This document shows positions 4,261 to 53,682 of a stretch of 64,000 nucleotides of DNA, piece by piece. The stretch's first letter is position 1. Every line of letters begins with the position of its first letter. The stretch comes from Felis catus (taxonomy: Eukaryota): NCBI RefSeq assembly GCF_018350175.1, contig NC_058368.1, positions 31,560,001 to 31,624,000 on the forward strand, written 5' to 3'. The notes beneath the pieces were generated by a model, which saw only the letters and a program-made list of their open reading frames with translations, had not been told where the DNA came from and made no database searches. The translations under genes and the position numbers were made by a program.

Positions 4261-4495
4261 TTTATTTATTTATTTATTTATTTATTTATTTTCAACGTTT
4301 ATTTATTTTTGGGACAGAGAGAGACAGAGCATGAACGGGGAAGGGGCAGAGAGAGAGGGAGACACAGAATCGGAAACAGGCTCCAGGCTCTGAGCCATCA
4401 GCCCAGAGCCCGACGCGGGGCTCGAACTCACGGACCTCGAGATCGTGACCTGGCTGAAGTCAGACGCTTAACCGACTGCGCCACCCAGGCGCCCC
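4261..4495 (-). mobile_element. Young SINEC_Fc with a (TAAA)n tail
   Basis: Near-consensus with CpGs intact; TSD GATGCAGATA(G/C)TTTA. Confidence 0.97.
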
Positions 4496-4919
4496 TGATG
4501 CAGATACTTTATAATTGAGATACTTCTTGAGATTTGCACTTCAAAACATAGCCACACAAAATAAAGCACATTTTATAATCACTAACCACTTTTGAAATTG
4601 AGAATTCATTTTCTGGCAAGAGCTGTGTAATTTTTAAAAATCTATTATTTCTTCAAACCCAGGGCAGTTCAGCAAAGAGAAATAAGAATAGTTTTACAGT
4701 GCCATCTGTTTAATACACATGTTCAGTCTGAATCTAAATATCTGGCTTTCTGTAAACAATTGAACAAAGTTTCTTTTGATTCTTTGGAAAAAAATTTGTT
4801 TGTATCACTGTTGATCTTTTCCATTCAATTTCAAAATAATACATCTTCACTGAAGAAACCATGACTTTTGTAACAGTAAAAAGAGCAAAATAATATTTAT
4901 ATTAATTCCCATTTCACAG

Positions 4920-5447: not shown

Positions 5448-6405
5448 TCAGTAAGTATCAGAATTTCCCATTTTTCCTTACACATATAAATACTTGTAGA
5501 GAACTTAAAGGTCCAGGCCTGTGTATCCCATAATGAAACAAGAGGCATTTATAACTCACTTTTTCTCCCACTAACAAAAGCAAATAAATACACATAAATG
5601 TGCATATCAACACAAATGTAAGTATAGATATTTCTCAATCTGCACTGTATTTTAGTTTATTTTTCCTCCGGTGTCTTTTTCAGTATCCTTCATAAGGAGT
5701 ATCTATTACAGCACACCCATTAGTTTATTTGTGCTAGCATTTATATGGGCTAGCATACTCAAGAGACTCTCAGAGTATCATCAAAGGGTAAATGACAAGT
5801 ATTTACTGGCTGTATTTATATGTCAATAAATGAATATCAGCCGTTAAATAATTTAAAAGAGGAAAATAGGAAAAAAGAATATGGAAGAGAAGGTAACTAT
5901 CATTCAAGGGTATGCTTTAGAAATAAGGAATTATCTAGGGAATACAATGTTATTTATAACTTAAAGCACATGGGGCATTTAAAAAACCAATATCTGAAAG
6001 GCATTAATCTATAATCATGCTAATACTTTACCATTCTTTGTTAAGAAATTACTGCAATGCTCCCCATATATGGTGATATCTAATGAGTCACTTCATACTT
6101 TACAATTATGAAAACACTTAATTTTAGTTTTAAATAGACTAAAGAACATAAAGAAATATCACTGTATTAAATTTTGTATGTAAACTGTAACCTAGATTTT
6201 TGGAGCAAACAAAAAGAGCTATACTTTCATCACCTAGTCTCTGTGCCTTAGTTTCATTATGTATAAAGAATCATATAAAATCATATTTAATGCCCTTTCC
6301 ATTGCCAAACTTCCAGTTCTACATGTTATTTTAAAATAAGCAAGAATTATATATTTTTTATGATACCTAATATGTTCTTTTTGAAATTTAATGAAGAGAT
6401 ACTGG

Positions 6406-7099
6406 CTTTTTTCCTACTACCGAGAGAGGGGTCCACACCCTCTTGTTCTGAGTTTCCCTCATAGCTTTCAGGGAAACTTTGACAATGTCCAGAGCCCTTG
6501 ATGTCCTACAGATGAAGGAGGAGGAAGTCCTGAAATTTCTTGCAGCCGGAACCCTCTTAGATGGCACCAACCCTGACTTCCGAACATGGGCCTACCATCG
6601 CTCCGTATAACATACTCTCCCCCACCCGTGTGGACCCGGCCATCCAGAGCAAACACAGGGAGCTCACCGGGCGAGCCTGAGGAGGCCGTGGCGCCAGGAA
6701 GTTCTGCGCATGTGCGGTCCTGGCTCCCGTGAACGCTTACGGGAAGTCTCGCGTGATCTCTACCTCCAAAGAAATCCTGAAGAGCCTGACGAGGAAGTGC
6801 AGGTAGTAGCCGGAGAGGGTGTGAGCAAGCGGGAATTTCAGGCTGGATGCACAACCCCAGCTGCAGCGACCGCTCTGACTCAGCGGGAGGTGGCGGTGGG
6901 GTCTGAAGGTGCACGTGGTGCCTGGTGCCGGCAGCCAGCCGGCAGTTCCATGCTGAGGCCTGGTCTGTAGCTTCCACTACCAGGCCAGAGTTGGGGGCGA
7001 ACTACTGACCGGTCTGAAGCTCTTCTTTCACAGACTCTAAACGCAAAGTGGACATAAGGTCGACGGAAAATAAACAGCTTGATAGAAAAGGAAAAAAAA
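6406..7099 (+). pseudogene. RPSA: Processed pseudogene of 40S ribosomal protein SA (uS2/laminin receptor), internally deleted
   Basis: Starts with a 5'TOP-like CTTTTTTCC and an RPSA-like 5'UTR. ATG 6485 reads [32 protein letters not shown] ([36 protein letters not shown]), then jumps out of frame to PTIALCNTDS-homologous sequence, with a stop at 6608-6610. ORF 6710-6970 aligns to RPSA [25 protein letters not shown]...QPEVADWSEG. No introns; AATAAA at 7069-7074; A-rich tail to about 7099. Confidence 0.95.
6545..7070. promoter_or_regulatory. CpG-island-like patch within the RPSA retrocopy (candidate promoter)
   Basis: About 32 CpGs hand-counted in 6541-7080 within a CpG-poor window. Motifs: ETS-like CAGGAAGT 6695-6702, NRF1-like TGCGCATGTGCG 6705-6716, TCTCGCGTGA 6747-6756, E-box CACGTG 6912-6917. 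Function is inferred only. Confidence 0.45.
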
Positions 7100-8507
7100 T
7101 CTAGAATCTTCGCTCTAAAGAAGAGAAAATAGACGGTAATTCTCTGGATATAGGCTCTGTAGGGTATGCTGTCAAATTTTAAATTCTTATCTTCATAATC
7201 ATGATTGTGAACAGCCTAAAGAAAGCGTGCAATACAGTATGTATTATTAATTGTAATATCTTGTAGAGTATAATTAATCTAAATTGATCTGTGATGAAGT
7301 CCTGAAATATATTGAGGGGTGAAATCAAGTTTGTTTCTTTCAAAATTAATAAGACCTTATTGGATGGGAGAGCTTTGGAATAATTTCTTTAAGAATACAT
7401 TTGGAAAAGACTTCATCAAATTTCCCTGATTAAATTAGATTTGGACTTTAAAATCATGATTTGAAATCATGAGCTTTCTGATGGATTTGAAAGAATTAAG
7501 ATTAATGTATCTATGAAAAATGGAATAGTCCTGAAGACTCTGGAGGGAAGCAGGCTATTTAAGTATTTTTTCTGCTTTGTTGGAGTCCTCAAAATAAATA
7601 TGGAAAAAAGCCAAACAATAAGAGGTGGAGGAGTTTCATTAGGATTAGGCACTGAAAGTTGTCAGCAGAGTCTGAAGTATCAGAATCTGTCCTTGCCAGA
7701 AAAATAATGACAAGAGCAGTTTAGACCTCTAAATAATCTACATATTTTGTGAAAAGAGAAGGGAATTAATATTAAAGTGAGTATTTTGTGAGATTGTAGG
7801 GAAGATTCTGTAGCAAGTTAAAAATGAGTTTGTCATAGGTAATAGGAAAGAGAAAAGAGATTTTGCAAAAGAAGGGGAAATAAAGGGTAAAGATATAACA
7901 AAAAAGTAAAGAAGATGTCAGGTGAGACATGCAAATATAGATAGGGGAAGCAATAAATTGACATAGAGTTTAAAAGAGAATCCACTGAAACAGAAGAGTG
8001 AAAAAATAATCCCCCATTATTTCAATGAAGGGCCAGAAAGTGGGCAAATAAAGGTGCTAAACTCTTGAACACATTAAAATAAATTTCCACGTTGTTTCTT
8101 ATGGTAGTTTTGAGAATAATTTTCACTAGTTGTTCCTTAATCCCAGGCAGTAATTTCTAAATTCTGGCAGGTAAATGTTTAACAATCCGGTAAAGTCTCT
8201 GATATCAGGTGGAGTTCTTAGCAAAATTGCAGGGTATGCTAAATGAGGATAATTAACAATTTACACTGAATTATAAGTAATCCTTTTGCTGACTGAAGGT
8301 GTTTGAGGAGACCAAGAACTGAAGACGTTTAACAAAGTAATGGGTGACTTCACCCAAGGCTCTGGCACAAATTCAAATTAAAGGAAACAAATAATACTCA
8401 TGCCTGAGGTAGCTGAGCTTATGCTAAACCGTCAGCATATGTCTGCAAAAACAAAATGGGAATGTAAATAAATAGATAACAAAATTTTGACATTAGACAT
8501 TCACTTA

Positions 8508-8720
8508 TTTTTTTTTAATGTTTTTATTTATTTTTGGGACAGAGAGAGACAGAGCATGAACGGGAGAAGGGCAGAGAGAGAAGGAGACACAGAGTCGGCA
8601 ACAGGCTCCAGGCTCTGAGCCATCAGCCCAGAGCCTGACGCGGGGCTCGAACTCACAGACCGTGAGATCGTGACCTGGCTGAAGTCGGACGCCCAACCGA
8701 CTGTGCCACCCAGGCGCCCC
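8508..8720 (-). mobile_element. SINEC_Fc
   Basis: Full-length; TSD ACATTCACTTA. Confidence 0.97.
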
Positions 8721-38989: not shown

Positions 38990-40030
38990 ATCTATAATGG
39001 AAAAGATGGTAAAGGCTATGACAAGAGCAGAGCAGAAAAGATTTTTCAATTCAAAATTTCAATAATTATTTAAAAAGATGTTCAACCTCTTTATTAATCA
39101 GGGAAAAGCAAATGAGTGATAACAATTTCATTGGTCATATTGGCAAATAAATTAAAGATTAATAACATCCAAGCTGGTGAGGGTAATCAAAACAGGCACT
39201 CCTATACATTGCTGATTGGGATAACAGCAACCTTTTGGGAAACTAACCTGGCAGAATTTAAAAGTGAAATATACATTCCATTAAACTCAACATTCTCACT
39301 TTGAAATAAAAATACGAAAGAAAAACGCCATCATATGTTATGCCCAGAATTCGTGATCCCCAAAGACCACTAGGGAGCCGAGTCCGATGCAAAAGCAAAG
39401 AGCCTTTATTCCAGCTAGCTCGAGCTCAATCCCCTACCTGCACCAACGCAGCGGTGAGATACCAGGGAAAGAGAGCGAGTTTCAAAAGGACAAAGGTTTT
39501 ATTGGGGCCTGGGGGCAGTTGGTGAGGTAATGGCTATGGCCTCAGCCGATTGGCTGGGGAAGGGTCCTGGGGAAGGGTCCGAGTCCTGTTAGGCAGGTGA
39601 GGGAGGGTTTACTCAAGGGGAGGAGGTGTGGTCAAGGTGAAGGACACAGAACAAGATGGAGTCGGCTGGCGTAGGCCTGCCCTTTCACATACAAAGATTT
39701 CCTGCAGAATTCCTTGAAGTGATAAAAAAAAATAAAAGCATCTTAAATACCCACCAATAGGGAAATGACTAAAAAACTTATGGCATATTTATAAATATTT
39801 GATATTTTACAGTCATTAAGAAAAAATAAATCTCTGTATAAATATAATTTTCTACTAAAGAAGCAAGAAGCAAAGTTATGTTTGTGTATGTAGGTTTCCC
39901 TCTGCTTACATGGACAAACAAAATTACTTGGAAAGATGTGCTTTATACAGGTAATAATTTTTCCTTGTGGAGTGAGCAAGGGGAATGGAGAGATGAGAGT
40001 GAGTGCTGAATTTTATTATGTACTTCTTTG
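38990..40030 (+). mobile_element. L1ME-like ORF2 end/3'UTR relic hosting the ERV1 LTR
   Basis: AAAAGATGTTCAACCTC..TAATCAGGGAAAAGCAAAT and CACTCCTATACATTGCTG; the sequence continues past the LTR. Confidence 0.75.
39336..39687 (-). mobile_element. Solo LTR of a class I (gammaretrovirus-like) felid ERV
   Basis: 352 bp, TG...CA termini (minus strand begins TGAAAG), perfect 4-bp TSD CATA (39332-39335 and 39688-39691). On the minus strand, in the correct order: CCAAT (about 39549-39553), TATA-like AATAAAA (39497-39503), poly(A) signal AATAAA (39405-39410). CpGs retained. Confidence 0.93.
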
Positions 40031-45466: not shown

Positions 45467-45690
45467 GGGGCGCCTGGGTGGCTCAGTCAGTTAAGCGTCC
45501 GGCTTCGGCTCAGGTCATGATCTCGCGGTCCGTGAGTTCAAGCCCTGCGTCGGGCTCTGTGCTGACAGGTCAGAGCCTGGAGCCTGCTTCGGTTTCTGTG
45601 TCTCCCTCTCTCTCTGCCCCTCCCCTGCTCATGCTCTGCCTCTCTATGTCTCAAAAATAAATAAAAACATTAAAAAAAATTTAAGAAAAA
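45467..45690 (+). mobile_element. SINEC_Fc
   Basis: TSD AAGAAA(G/A)GAAATTATG. Confidence 0.97.
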
Positions 45691-46382: not shown

Positions 46383-46613
46383 GGGATGCCTGGGTGGCTC
46401 AGGCGGTTAAGCGTCCGACTTCAGCTCAGGTCACGATCTCGCAGTCCGTGGGTTTGAGCCCCGCGTTGGGCTCTGGGCTGATGGCCCAGAGCCTGGAGCC
46501 TGCTTCCGATTCTCTATCTCCCTCTCTCTCTGCCCCTCCTCCGTTCATGCTCTGTCTCTCTGTCTCAAAAATAAATAAACGTTAAAAAAAAAATTAAAAA
46601 AAAAAAGAAAAAA
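46383..46613 (+). mobile_element. SINEC_Fc
   Basis: TSD GAAAATGAGTCACTG. Confidence 0.97.
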
Positions 46614-46988
46614 GAAAATGAGTCACTGAGTGTTAAAGAAACATTTCTTAGGCTACTTAGTAAGGAGAAACATTAATAAGTAGAAACAAAGTTCTTTTAA
46701 CAACACAACCAAGTTCTTAATCACTATGTTTTATAATTGTAAAATGTTTATAATTTTTCCCTGAGAACTCTATTATAATACACCAAAATATTAAACACGC
46801 TTATATCAAGAGAGAAGAATAGTAATTGTTGAAAGATAGGCATGTATTTCATTATGTCTATAAAAATTTTAGGATGCAATTTTTGTATTTATTATTATCT
46901 AAGCATTATAAATATAATTGCCTTGAGAATAAAAAGTAGATCTTCCCATGTATGGTCTCTACTATGAGTATCTTGAATGGTAGCAATA

Positions 46989-47190
46989 GGGGCGCCTGGG
47001 TGGCATAGTCGGTTAAGCGTCCTACTGCAGCCAGGTCACGATCTCGCGGTCCGTGAGTTCGAGCCCTGCGTCAGGCTCTGGGCTGATGGCTCAGAGCCTG
47101 GAGCCTGTTTCCGATTCTGTGTCTCCCTCTCTCTCTGCCCCTCCCCCGTTCATGCTCTGTCTCTCTCTGTCCCAAAAATAAATAAACGTT
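46989..47190 (+). mobile_element. Young SINEC_Fc without a poly(A) tail
   Basis: Body ends AATAAACGTT and runs directly into the TSD GAATGGTAGCAATA. Confidence 0.96.
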
Positions 47191-48329
47191 GAATGGTAGC
47201 AATACAGGTTTTTAATTTTTGATCCTTTACAATGTTATTGTTTAAACATTTTTCCATAATGAGCATATAATACTTTAAGACCTATTTAAAGAAAACTGAT
47301 ACATTTGAAATTTTATGTTTAAATTTGCATTTGTAGAAGAATGTGTAGGAGTCACTAAATTTTTGAGTACCACGTGCCACAGCCCAAGATAACTCCTGTA
47401 CAGGTTTAAATTTTTAGGAGCTATTTAAATAATTTTGGCTGCACCACAGGCACAGGAGAAGGGCGAGGAGTAGCAGCAAGAGCTTCACAAAAGTATTTAT
47501 TGACCTTTACAAGAGCAGAGACACCATCAGGTGAGTGGAGATCTGGCAGCTTCTAAGCATTTGCATCCCTGAGAATTACACCAAGATTGTGAGGGTTCAT
47601 TATGATGATTTTGACAGCTGTGTGAACTGCAGGAATCTCTTCATCACCCCACCTTTCATGTTTTAGCCTCATTCTTCTCTTGACTCTTCTATGCATCTTT
47701 AAGCTTGGCACTTGAAACTTTGAACTGGTAAAGCTTATTTTATTTTTCCAACCTTATATCTTATGACTGCAGAAAAAGAAACTGCTACGAGAGAAATAAT
47801 CTATGATGCCCCAAATATTCTATAAAAACTTTGCCTTTTCTCCTCTTGCTCCTGACATTCTAACAGTTTTTCAGTCAAGGTGTAATCCTATATTTGTTCG
47901 TTATTTCCTTCTGATTTCGATAACCTTCATTTATTTGCCATTCTAAAATGAGTATAATGTAATCCAATATATAAAATATTTAATACAAGACTCAGGAAGG
48001 TTGAAAATATTGTGGAAATATTGTGAAAACTTGTGAAACAAGTGAAACTTGTGAAAATATTCTTTTAAATGTGCTGGCAAATCTCACATTCAATGCACAT
48101 AATAGCAAAAACAGGCAAATGAAATATATAGGCACTAATTACTGTTATACTCTTATGCCTCCTTGATTTCTGTTTATGTCTTTTCAATTACATTTCTCAG
48201 GAATGGTCTTTACCTGCTGCCATACACTTCTTATATGCACACTCAATGGGTTACTCCAAACTAGATCAATTTATTTCCCTCATTCTAATTACAGTCCTGG
48301 AAAAAGTTAAGAGGAGACAGCTTTTCTAA

Positions 48330-53459: not shown

Positions 53460-53682
53460 TTTTTTTTTAATTTTTTTTTCAACGTTTATTTATTTTTGGG
53501 ACAGAGAGAGACAGAGCATGAACGGGGGTGGGGCAGAGAGAGAGGGAGACACAGAATCAGAAACAGGCTCCAGGCTCTGAGCCATCAGCCCAGAGCCTGA
53601 CGCGGGGCTCGAACTCCCGGACCGCGAGATCGTGACCTGGCTGAAGTCGGACGCTTAACCGACTGCGCCACCCAGGCGCCCC
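53460..53682 (-). mobile_element. Young SINEC_Fc
   Basis: Near-consensus with CpGs intact; TSD CAGAATTTTATTTCT. Confidence 0.98.

What the first reader, a model, noticed from the sequence alone, without database searches (positions are those of the whole stretch)
6545..7070. Old RPSA retrocopy that gained CpGs and promoter motifs instead of decaying
Seen: the copy is deleted, frameshifted and strongly diverged, yet has about 32 CpGs in 540 bp. Against the RPSA mRNA as I recall it, the 5' part has lost CpGs (TCCGGA>TCCAGA) while the 3' part shows many changes toward G/C (GACATTGCC>GACCCGGCC, GTCATGCCTGA>GTCTCGCGTGA, GTTGATGG>GTCGACGG). Within about 60 bp lie an ETS core (CAGGAAGT), an NRF1-like site (TGCGCATGTGCG) and TCTCGCGTGA, one mismatch from the BANP-bound TCTCGCGAGA element; an E-box follows at 6912. 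Established: methylated pseudogenes lose CpG, and ETS, NRF1 and BANP sites typify CpG-island promoters. Inference: former coding sequence has become a germline-unmethylated orphan island, possibly an exapted promoter, or it records GC-biased gene conversion at a recombination hotspot.
Basis: partly seen in the sequence, partly recalled or inferred. Interest (0 to 1): 0.75.

Follow-up and report, generated by a model that had tools for sequence, protein, structure and literature searches.

The report
Dead RPSA copy turned CpG island
A broken, intron-less copy of a ribosomal protein gene in cat DNA has been rewritten towards G and C in its back half and has built a small CpG island there, most likely because that spot stayed unmethylated and recombined often; whether it now works as a promoter is hinted at but not shown.

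Summary
Confirmed: 32 CpGs in 526 bp (o/e 0.67; non-SINE background 0.15) in a processed RPSA copy. Scored against the RPSA protein, the 3' part changed at 67 of 225 fixed codon sites and the 5' part at 4 of 58. In the 3' part, weak-to-strong changes were 33/100 and strong-to-weak 14/125 (GC* 0.75). Of 25 scorable CpGs, 17 cannot have been in the parent. A gene model from a more distant mammal marks the same insertion; the bias began before the split, and that copy has since drifted towards A/T. The motif claim is only partly right. The clustered ETS core and the NRF1-like site come from RPSA codons 180-186. The BANP-like site and the E-box are new, but the BANP-like site has one broken half. 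Four ChIP-seq runs (one study) and RNA libraries (two studies) hold the stretch above uniform cover, but antibody, tissue, strand and peak shape are unknown. Best reading: a germline-unmethylated spot under long GC-biased gene conversion. The process is known, and this scan noted four similar retrocopies in other genomes. Selected promoter function is unproven.

The parts
6389..6399 (+). Candidate left target-site duplication
   Evidence: 10 of 11 identical to 7116-7126; short, could be chance
6407..6484 (+). Probable 5'UTR-derived part of the copy
   Evidence: Likeness to the RPSA 5'UTR is recalled, not tested; lies between the candidate TSD and the ATG; 6407-6582 has GC 0.49, CpG o/e 0.28
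6485..6582 (+). RPSA codons 1-33, slowly and ordinarily decaying (internal control)
   Evidence: uS2 match E 7e-11; 4 of 58 codon-fixed sites changed, GC* 0.30 on 3 informative changes
6583..6591 (+). Junction of the internal deletion (about codons 34-141); an ETS-type core ends here on the minus strand (6576)
   Evidence: the distant orthologous model P0062 still has this region
6592..7018 (+). RPSA codons about 142-295 plus stop, fast-evolving and G/C-biased; body of the CpG island
   Evidence: 67 of 225 fixed sites changed, W>S 33/100, S>W 14/125; 6592-7075 has GC 0.60, 30 CpG, o/e 0.70
6695..6716 (+). ETS core plus NRF1-like site on RPSA codons 180-187; mostly inherited
   Evidence: EVLRM unchanged; decay products in other RPSA copies show that R184 and R186 were CGY codons; 11/12 to the recalled NRF1 consensus
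6747..6756 (+). BANP-like site (9/10), gained; present in felid ORFs, absent from the distant copy
   Evidence: three forced changes at 6749, 6750, 6753; V-S-R-D in felid ORFs against V-T-P-D in P0062/P0035; shuffle P 0.015
6793..6798 (+). Further ETS core made by E214V, seen in the window lineage but not in the Lynx ORF
6912..6917 (+). E-box, gained by two W>S changes; not beyond chance
   Evidence: forced changes at 6912 and 6915; shuffle P 0.13
7069..7099 (+). AATAAA and decayed poly(A) tail
   Evidence: AATAAA at 7069; A-rich run in the sequence
7116..7126 (+). Candidate right target-site duplication
7584..7634 (+). Unique flank that anchors orthology with gene model P0062
   Evidence: 14 of 17 aa identical to the P0062 tail, E 2.6e-5 (5e-11 for the tail alone)
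8218..8250 (+). Second flank anchor with P0062
   Evidence: 9 of 11 aa identical, in order, E 0.001 for the tail alone

Best explanation
An L1-made RPSA retrocopy inserted into AT-rich, apparently gene-poor DNA before felids split from the lineage of P0062. Its 3' coding part stayed unmethylated in the germline (inferred), probably helped by the NRF1-like and ETS sites and the small CpG cluster already written in codons 180-191 (inferred). The unmethylated patch acted for a long time as a PRDM9-independent recombination site (inferred). GC-biased gene conversion fixed A/T>G/C changes there (bias shown, cause inferred) and the new CpGs were not deaminated (shown), so a CpG island grew out of sequence that was not one. 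The process went on in the felid line and lapsed in the other lineage. Today it is an orphan island with probable promoter- or enhancer-like chromatin and some transcription, most likely as a by-product rather than under selection.
For: Rate: 67/225 against 4/58 fixed sites, P 1.5e-4. The excess is in W>S (33/100 against 1/31, P 4e-4), not in S>W (14/125 against 2/27, P 0.74). GC* is 0.75 (bootstrap 0.64-0.85); nulls of 0.35-0.50 are rejected at P 2e-8 to 3e-4. 17 of 25 scorable CpGs are impossible in the parent. 16 of 45 new C/G letters lie in CpG against 14.1 expected without decay; o/e 0.2-0.4 is rejected at P <= 7e-5. 32 other RPSA-like products pooled give W>S 108 and S>W 166, against 18 and 9 here (P 0.008), and 2 of 16 diverged ones keep both R184 and R191, which this copy keeps. 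Branches over codons 185-250: shared stem W>S 10.0 / S>W 2.5; distant copy 1.0 / 4.8; felid stem 7.8 / 6.3; window tip 2.5 / 0; stem against distant branch P 0.04. ChIP runs X2 and X8 and RNA runs X1 and X3 hold more of the stretch than uniform cover gives (P <= 0.007 in four simulated settings). [quoted passage not shown]
Against: No parent mRNA or orthologous DNA was obtained, so all polarity comes from protein constraints and ignores synonymous sites. The 5' control is small (58 sites). On the felid stem the bias is weak (7.8 to 6.3), and window lineage against distant branch is not significant (P 0.15). S>S and W>W changes are also raised (20/225 against 1/58, P 0.09), which gBGC alone does not predict and which points to a raised mutation rate as well. 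Control proteins were found by likeness to the query and include real RPSA genes; single controls reach GC* 0.6-0.7. Some felids show a deficit, not a peak, of recombination at PRDM9-independent hotspots (PMC11161765, abstract; species not seen). Methylation and recombination were not measured. X5, X4, X6 and X7 are only weakly above uniform cover (P 0.002-0.10), the number of runs that do not hold the stretch is unknown, and no listed ordinary transcriptome held more than 0.04 of it.
Confidence: 0.65

Rival explanations
1. Exapted promoter or enhancer under selection: the CpGs and motifs were fixed because the island drives a lncRNA or a distant gene.
For: ChIP and RNA holders above uniform cover. 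P0003 reads the motif block in another frame and is identical over 28 codons. The BANP-like site is kept in all felid ORFs seen. Three of five GGAAGT-type cores in the copy (6523, 6576, 6793) arose after insertion, two of them by changes that gBGC does not favour. Precedent: PPP1R26P1 in RB1 (PMC3839921, passages).
Against: The region evolves about four times faster than the 5' part. New CpGs are no more frequent than the context-free expectation (16 against 14.1), so no selection for CpG is seen. The BANP-like site breaks one TCTCG half-site, the unit the BEN domain prefers (PMC10206803, passages). Glu-rich codons make GGAAG common, so the shuffle P for ETS is inflated. No target gene: 0 of 298 ORFs scanned passed a Pfam cut-off.
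Confidence: 0.17
2. gBGC without lasting hypomethylation: successive PRDM9-directed hotspots pushed the sequence to G/C, the CpGs are simply young, and the island is methylated and inert.
For: Explains the W>S excess; some S>W changes occur on the felid stem (6.3); about 75% of 104 human non-murine intronic islands with sequence matches elsewhere, at least half of them in retrocopies, are methylated (PMC4122923, Discussion).
Against: The bias appears on three successive branches, too long for single PRDM9 alleles (recalled). New CpGs show no decay even against o/e 0.4. Inherited CpGs at R184 and R191 survive.
Confidence: 0.11
3. Chimeric source: the 3' part came from, or was converted by, another already GC-rich RPSA copy.
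For: Sharp 5'/3' contrast in the cat. P0043 and P0057 share a few derived residues with the stem.
Against: P0062 is one continuous copy whose divergence rises gradually, from 6/32 residues to 10/30, 11/30 and 25/66. About 25 further changes arose in place after the split. Shared residues in other hits are expected from a likeness-ranked search.
Confidence: 0.05
4. Ordinary young pseudogene whose CpGs are inherited.
For: 8 of 32 CpGs could be inherited and 7 could not be scored.
Against: 17 CpGs are impossible in the parent, and divergence at fixed sites is 30%.
Confidence: 0.02

Closest known systems
gBGC-made CpG islands at unmethylated, PRDM9-independent hotspots (PMC4350167, abstract; PMC11161765, section 8 and passages)
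   Same: W>S-driven acceleration, low CpG loss, location away from genes, lineage-dependent activity.
   Different: Here the lineage is a felid (felids keep PRDM9; recalled), the substrate is dead coding sequence whose starting state is known from the protein, and recombination itself was not measured.
Orphan CpG islands and their turnover (PMC11170920, passages)
   Same: Small non-genic island; the paper counts 77,199 in cat and names gBGC as a source.
   Different: Origin from a retrocopy's coding region with inherited factor sites; no histone mark identified here.
Retrocopy-derived islands that became promoters, e.g. PPP1R26P1/CpG85 in RB1 (PMC3839921, passages; PMC4122923, abstract and Discussion)
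   Same: Former coding sequence of a retrocopy forms the island.
   Different: Those islands are described as kept from the parent, and intergenic PPP1R26 copies decayed. Here most CpGs are new, the site seems intergenic, and no host transcript is known.
Retrocopy promoters (PMC4772013, passages)
   Same: Association of retrocopies with orphan islands and NRF1-type sites.
   Different: There the island lies upstream and drives the retrocopy; here it lies inside the 3' coding part of a broken copy.

Membership tests
Processed pseudogene of RPSA | Colinear homology to RPSA over many codons without introns | tested here: met
   aa 1-37 and 164-253; codons 142-295 in about 430 bp
Processed pseudogene of RPSA | Poly(A) signal, tail and target-site duplication | tested here: inconclusive
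   AATAAA 7069 and A-rich tail present; TSD candidate only 10/11
Processed pseudogene of RPSA | Coding capacity lost | tested here: met
   Deletion, frameshifts, 34 of 66 residues changed, frames differ among orthologous ORFs
CpG island (sequence definition) | At least 500 bp, GC 55% or more, o/e 0.65 or more (thresholds recalled) | tested here: met
   526 bp, GC 0.60, o/e 0.67; met narrowly
CpG island (functional) | Unmethylated in the germline | tested here: inconclusive
   Inferred from absence of CpG decay; no methylome available
gBGC tract | Local acceleration carried by W>S changes | tested here: met
   B about 1.3-1.7
gBGC tract | GC-conservative changes not raised | tested here: inconclusive
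   20/225 against 1/58, P 0.09
gBGC tract | Fixation bias in polymorphism data | not testable with these tools
   No cat SNP frequencies
PRDM9-independent hotspot | Measured recombination or DSBs without a PRDM9 motif | not testable with these tools
   Persistence over three branches is compatible
CpG-island promoter | TSS and H3K4me3 or open chromatin | tested here: inconclusive
   ChIP and RNA holders above uniform cover; antibody, tissue, strand and peak unknown
CpG-island promoter | Full BANP palindrome | tested here: not met
   9/10; one TCTCG half-site intact
Exapted element | Sequence constraint after exaptation | tested here: inconclusive
   Overall fast; motif block identical over 28 codons in P0003

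The most novel reading that the evidence does not exclude
RPSA coding sequence carries a hidden proto-promoter (ETS core, NRF1 site and four CpG-bearing Arg codons in codons 180-191). In this copy it escaped methylation, seeded a long-lived PRDM9-independent hotspot, and gBGC then built an island and further factor sites around it, giving felids an active promoter or enhancer that the orthologous copy in another mammal has lost. The many RPSA copies of mammals would then be a replicated natural experiment on how CpG islands are born.
Probability: 0.3. Interest if true: 0.72.

Novelty: new member of a known kind. Interest (0 to 1): 0.5.

Why it matters
How orphan CpG islands arise is open, and their ancestral state is usually unknown. 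Here it is known from an almost invariant protein, there is an internal control (the 5' part) and a sister copy that decays, so the order of events can be read: inherited factor sites, escape from methylation, biased conversion, new CpGs. It also bears on PRDM9-independent hotspots in felids. As a single locus of a known process, with similar cases noted elsewhere in this scan, it is a good example rather than a new kind of system.

Tried and rejected
No own genome is held. The parent mRNA was not found: viral scans gave 14 pattern matches and 0 confirmed and 0 matches; the metagenome scan gave 1 locus, a chance match in bacterial DNA. A search for longer relatives with alignment A1 found none among 8000 candidates. 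Host gene: 298 of the 483 ORFs of 45 aa or more were scanned against Pfam (two SINE ORFs and the 183 beyond 43.9 kb were not); 0 passed a cut-off and 2 had sub-threshold hits. Sensitivity is low, since the RPSA ORF itself had no hit. No read-level view of the locus was obtained, so peak shape, strand, start and splicing stay open. Runs X10-X12 (shares 0.14, 0.04, 0.04) are not used as evidence; X13-X24 are unindexed and unexamined. The P0062 tail looked like downstream exons, but its Trp/Gly spacing mimics the RPSA C-terminus, so I read it as a homology-driven model artefact: good for orthology, not for splicing. P0062 aa 99-137 is out of frame and was ignored. P0043 and P0057 were considered as older orthologues; not established. 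A protein role for the 86-119 aa ORF was rejected. Dropped before counts: sites within two columns of a gap and 6923-6958; P0027 (out of frame) and five cluster mates from the pooled control, which gave GC* 0.47 with all 38 rows in. Paper searches that found no description of this locus; the library lacks most subscription journals.

Full report
Observation. The stretch 6545-7070 holds 32 CpGs in 526 bp at 60% GC, o/e 0.67. Outside SINEs and the copy, the window is 33.6% GC with o/e 0.15, and the best 526-bp stretch has 13 CpGs. Translations match ribosomal protein uS2/RPSA at aa 1-37 and 164-253. A codon-degenerate alignment places a deletion of about codons 34-141 at 6583-6591 and follows the copy to the stop at 7018. 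AATAAA lies at 7069, followed by an A-rich tail, and there is a 10/11 candidate target-site duplication. It is a processed pseudogene.

Setting. No genome is held. An orthologous ORF is named from Lynx pardinus (VFV44043.1), and earlier notes of this scan call the genome cat and place the window 16.5 Mb after SOHLH2 and 18.3 Mb before COMMD6 (unchecked). With human coordinates recalled from memory, this points to the gene desert between OLFM4 and PCDH17; that is an inference. Of 483 ORFs of 45 aa or more, 298 were scanned against Pfam and none passed a cut-off; the test is insensitive.

Method. No RPSA mRNA could be fetched, so I used the protein. A 295-aa consensus of 18 mammalian RPSA-like proteins agrees with the PDB chain over aa 164-253 and over aa 1-37 except position 3, which was set from the PDB alignment. 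Only sites fixed by the amino acid were scored, so synonymous and UTR changes are invisible.

Direction and rate. In codons 1-33, 4 of 58 fixed sites changed; in the 3' part, 67 of 225 (P 1.5e-4). The difference lies in W>S changes (33/100 against 1/31, P 4e-4), not in S>W (14/125 against 2/27, P 0.74). GC* is 0.75 (bootstrap 0.64-0.85); nulls from 0.35 to 0.50 are rejected; the gap-free block 6694-6922 alone gives 20/61 and 7/78. Of the 32 CpGs, 17 are impossible under any RPSA codon, 8 are possible and 7 are not scorable. Of 45 new C or G letters, 16 lie in CpG against 14.1 expected with no decay and 2.8-5.6 at o/e 0.2-0.4: no decay, and no excess that would suggest selection for CpG. As controls, 32 other RPSA-like products give W>S 108 and S>W 166 by an amino-acid method that gives 18 and 9 here (P 0.008); 2 of 16 diverged ones keep both R184 and R191. 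These controls are biased by the search and include real genes; with all 38 rows the pooled GC* was 0.47, and some single rows reach 0.6-0.7.

History. P0062, a 281-aa model from an unnamed mammal, has a tail that matches unique window DNA at 7584-7634 (14/17 aa) and 8218-8250 (9/11 aa), in order, and shares 14 derived residues with the window in codons 185-250. It marks the same insertion, in a species more distant than the felid ORFs, and lacks the deletion. Parsimony over these 66 codons gives W>S 10.0 and S>W 2.5 before the split, 1.0 and 4.8 on the way to the distant copy, 7.8 and 6.3 on the felid stem, 2.5 and 0 on the window tip, and 0.7 changes in all to Lynx. Stem against distant branch gives P 0.04; window lineage against distant branch P 0.15. 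In codons 1-33 the two lineages changed equally (4 and 4 residues, 2 shared). The bias is therefore old and local, went on in felids, and lapsed in the other lineage.

Motifs. The ETS core at 6697 and most of the NRF1-like site lie on E181-V182-L183-R184-M185, unchanged from RPSA. In other RPSA copies R184 decays to C (5) or H (6) and R186 to C (11) or H (4) among 33 controls, so both were CGY codons and the parent already read as an NRF1-like site at least as good as this one (consensus recalled). The BANP-like site needs three forced changes and is seen in the felid ORFs only; it keeps one TCTCG half-site, the unit preferred in vitro (PMC10206803, passages); shuffle P 0.015. It also reads as an XRE or class C E-box (recalled), so its identity is loose. 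The E-box at 6912 is new but within chance (P 0.13). Three further ETS-type cores (6523, 6576, 6793) arose after insertion; Glu-rich codons make this easy.

Activity. Of 24 runs listed, 12 hold part of 6400-7150, from 4 studies. Four ChIP-seq runs of one study hold 0.86, 0.51, 0.32 and 0.31; five RNA libraries of two studies hold 0.94, 0.74, 0.51, 0.46 and 0.39. Assuming a 2.4-Gb genome, every letter being genomic and words needing two sightings, uniform cover reaches these shares with P <= 0.007 for X2, X8, X1 and X3, P <= 0.015 for X9, and 0.002-0.10 for X4-X7. This is a hint only: non-holders are not counted, antibody and tissue are unknown, GC-biased amplification or DNA carry-over could do the same, no ordinary transcriptome listed held more than 0.04, and no read-level view was obtained.

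Mechanism. Shown: local acceleration, W>S bias, CpG gain without decay, inheritance of the central motifs, persistence over branches. Inferred: germline hypomethylation, recombination at the unmethylated patch, gBGC as the cause (B about 1.3-1.7). S>S and W>W changes are also somewhat raised (20/225 against 1/58, P 0.09), which fits a raised mutation rate such as that reported at testis-active start sites (PMC13712754, abstract). Against: some felids lack recombination at such sites (PMC11161765, abstract; section 8 read; its figures and Dataset S1, which name the species, were not seen).

Known kinds. gBGC makes new islands away from genes and non-methylation attracts recombination (PMC4350167, abstract). 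Many orphan islands overlap gBGC tracts, notably in cat (PMC11170920, passages; Fig. S47 not seen). Retrocopy islands can become promoters (PMC3839921, passages) but are mostly methylated (PMC4122923, abstract and Discussion). Retrocopy promoters are usually external islands (PMC4772013, passages). Searches found no account of this locus. This scan noted four GC-gaining retrocopies in other genomes (unchecked). What sets this case apart is that most CpGs are new rather than kept, that a sister copy decays, and that candidate seed motifs come from coding sequence.

Verdict. Real; a new member of a known kind. gBGC at an unmethylated retrocopy 0.65; selected promoter 0.17; interest 0.5.

Noticed in passing
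window 39336-39687: GC-rich stretch with TG...CA ends, a 4-bp CATA direct repeat on both sides and a reverse polyadenylation-type signal; looks like a solo retroviral LTR (likeness recalled). It is the most CpG-rich non-SINE stretch outside the RPSA copy (13 CpG).
   Followed up: partly
window 4286-4496, 8523-8720, 45467-45665, 46388-46591, 46988-47193, 53473-53682: Young SINE copies (felid type, recalled) with 10-14 CpGs each; they account for the other CpG-rich 500-bp bins. 27 SINE-like intervals hold 117 of the window's 397 CpGs.
   Followed up: partly
window 6915-6950: Short slippage duplications in the GC-rich end differ between the window and the related ORFs P0002, P0003 and P0006, and a piece of the RPSA C-terminal repeat region is missing.
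   Followed up: partly
window 6830-6832: Codon 225 reads R in the window and G in the otherwise identical P0004 and in the Lynx ORF: a likely polymorphic or very recent CpG-creating change.
   Followed up: no
P0043, P0057: Other strongly diverged RPSA-derived ORFs with several of the same G/C-ward changes; either older orthologues or independent GC-gaining RPSA copies.
   Followed up: no
L001 1-3032: Chance pattern match in bacterial DNA that looks like type IV pilus assembly genes (recalled, not tested); unrelated.
   Followed up: no
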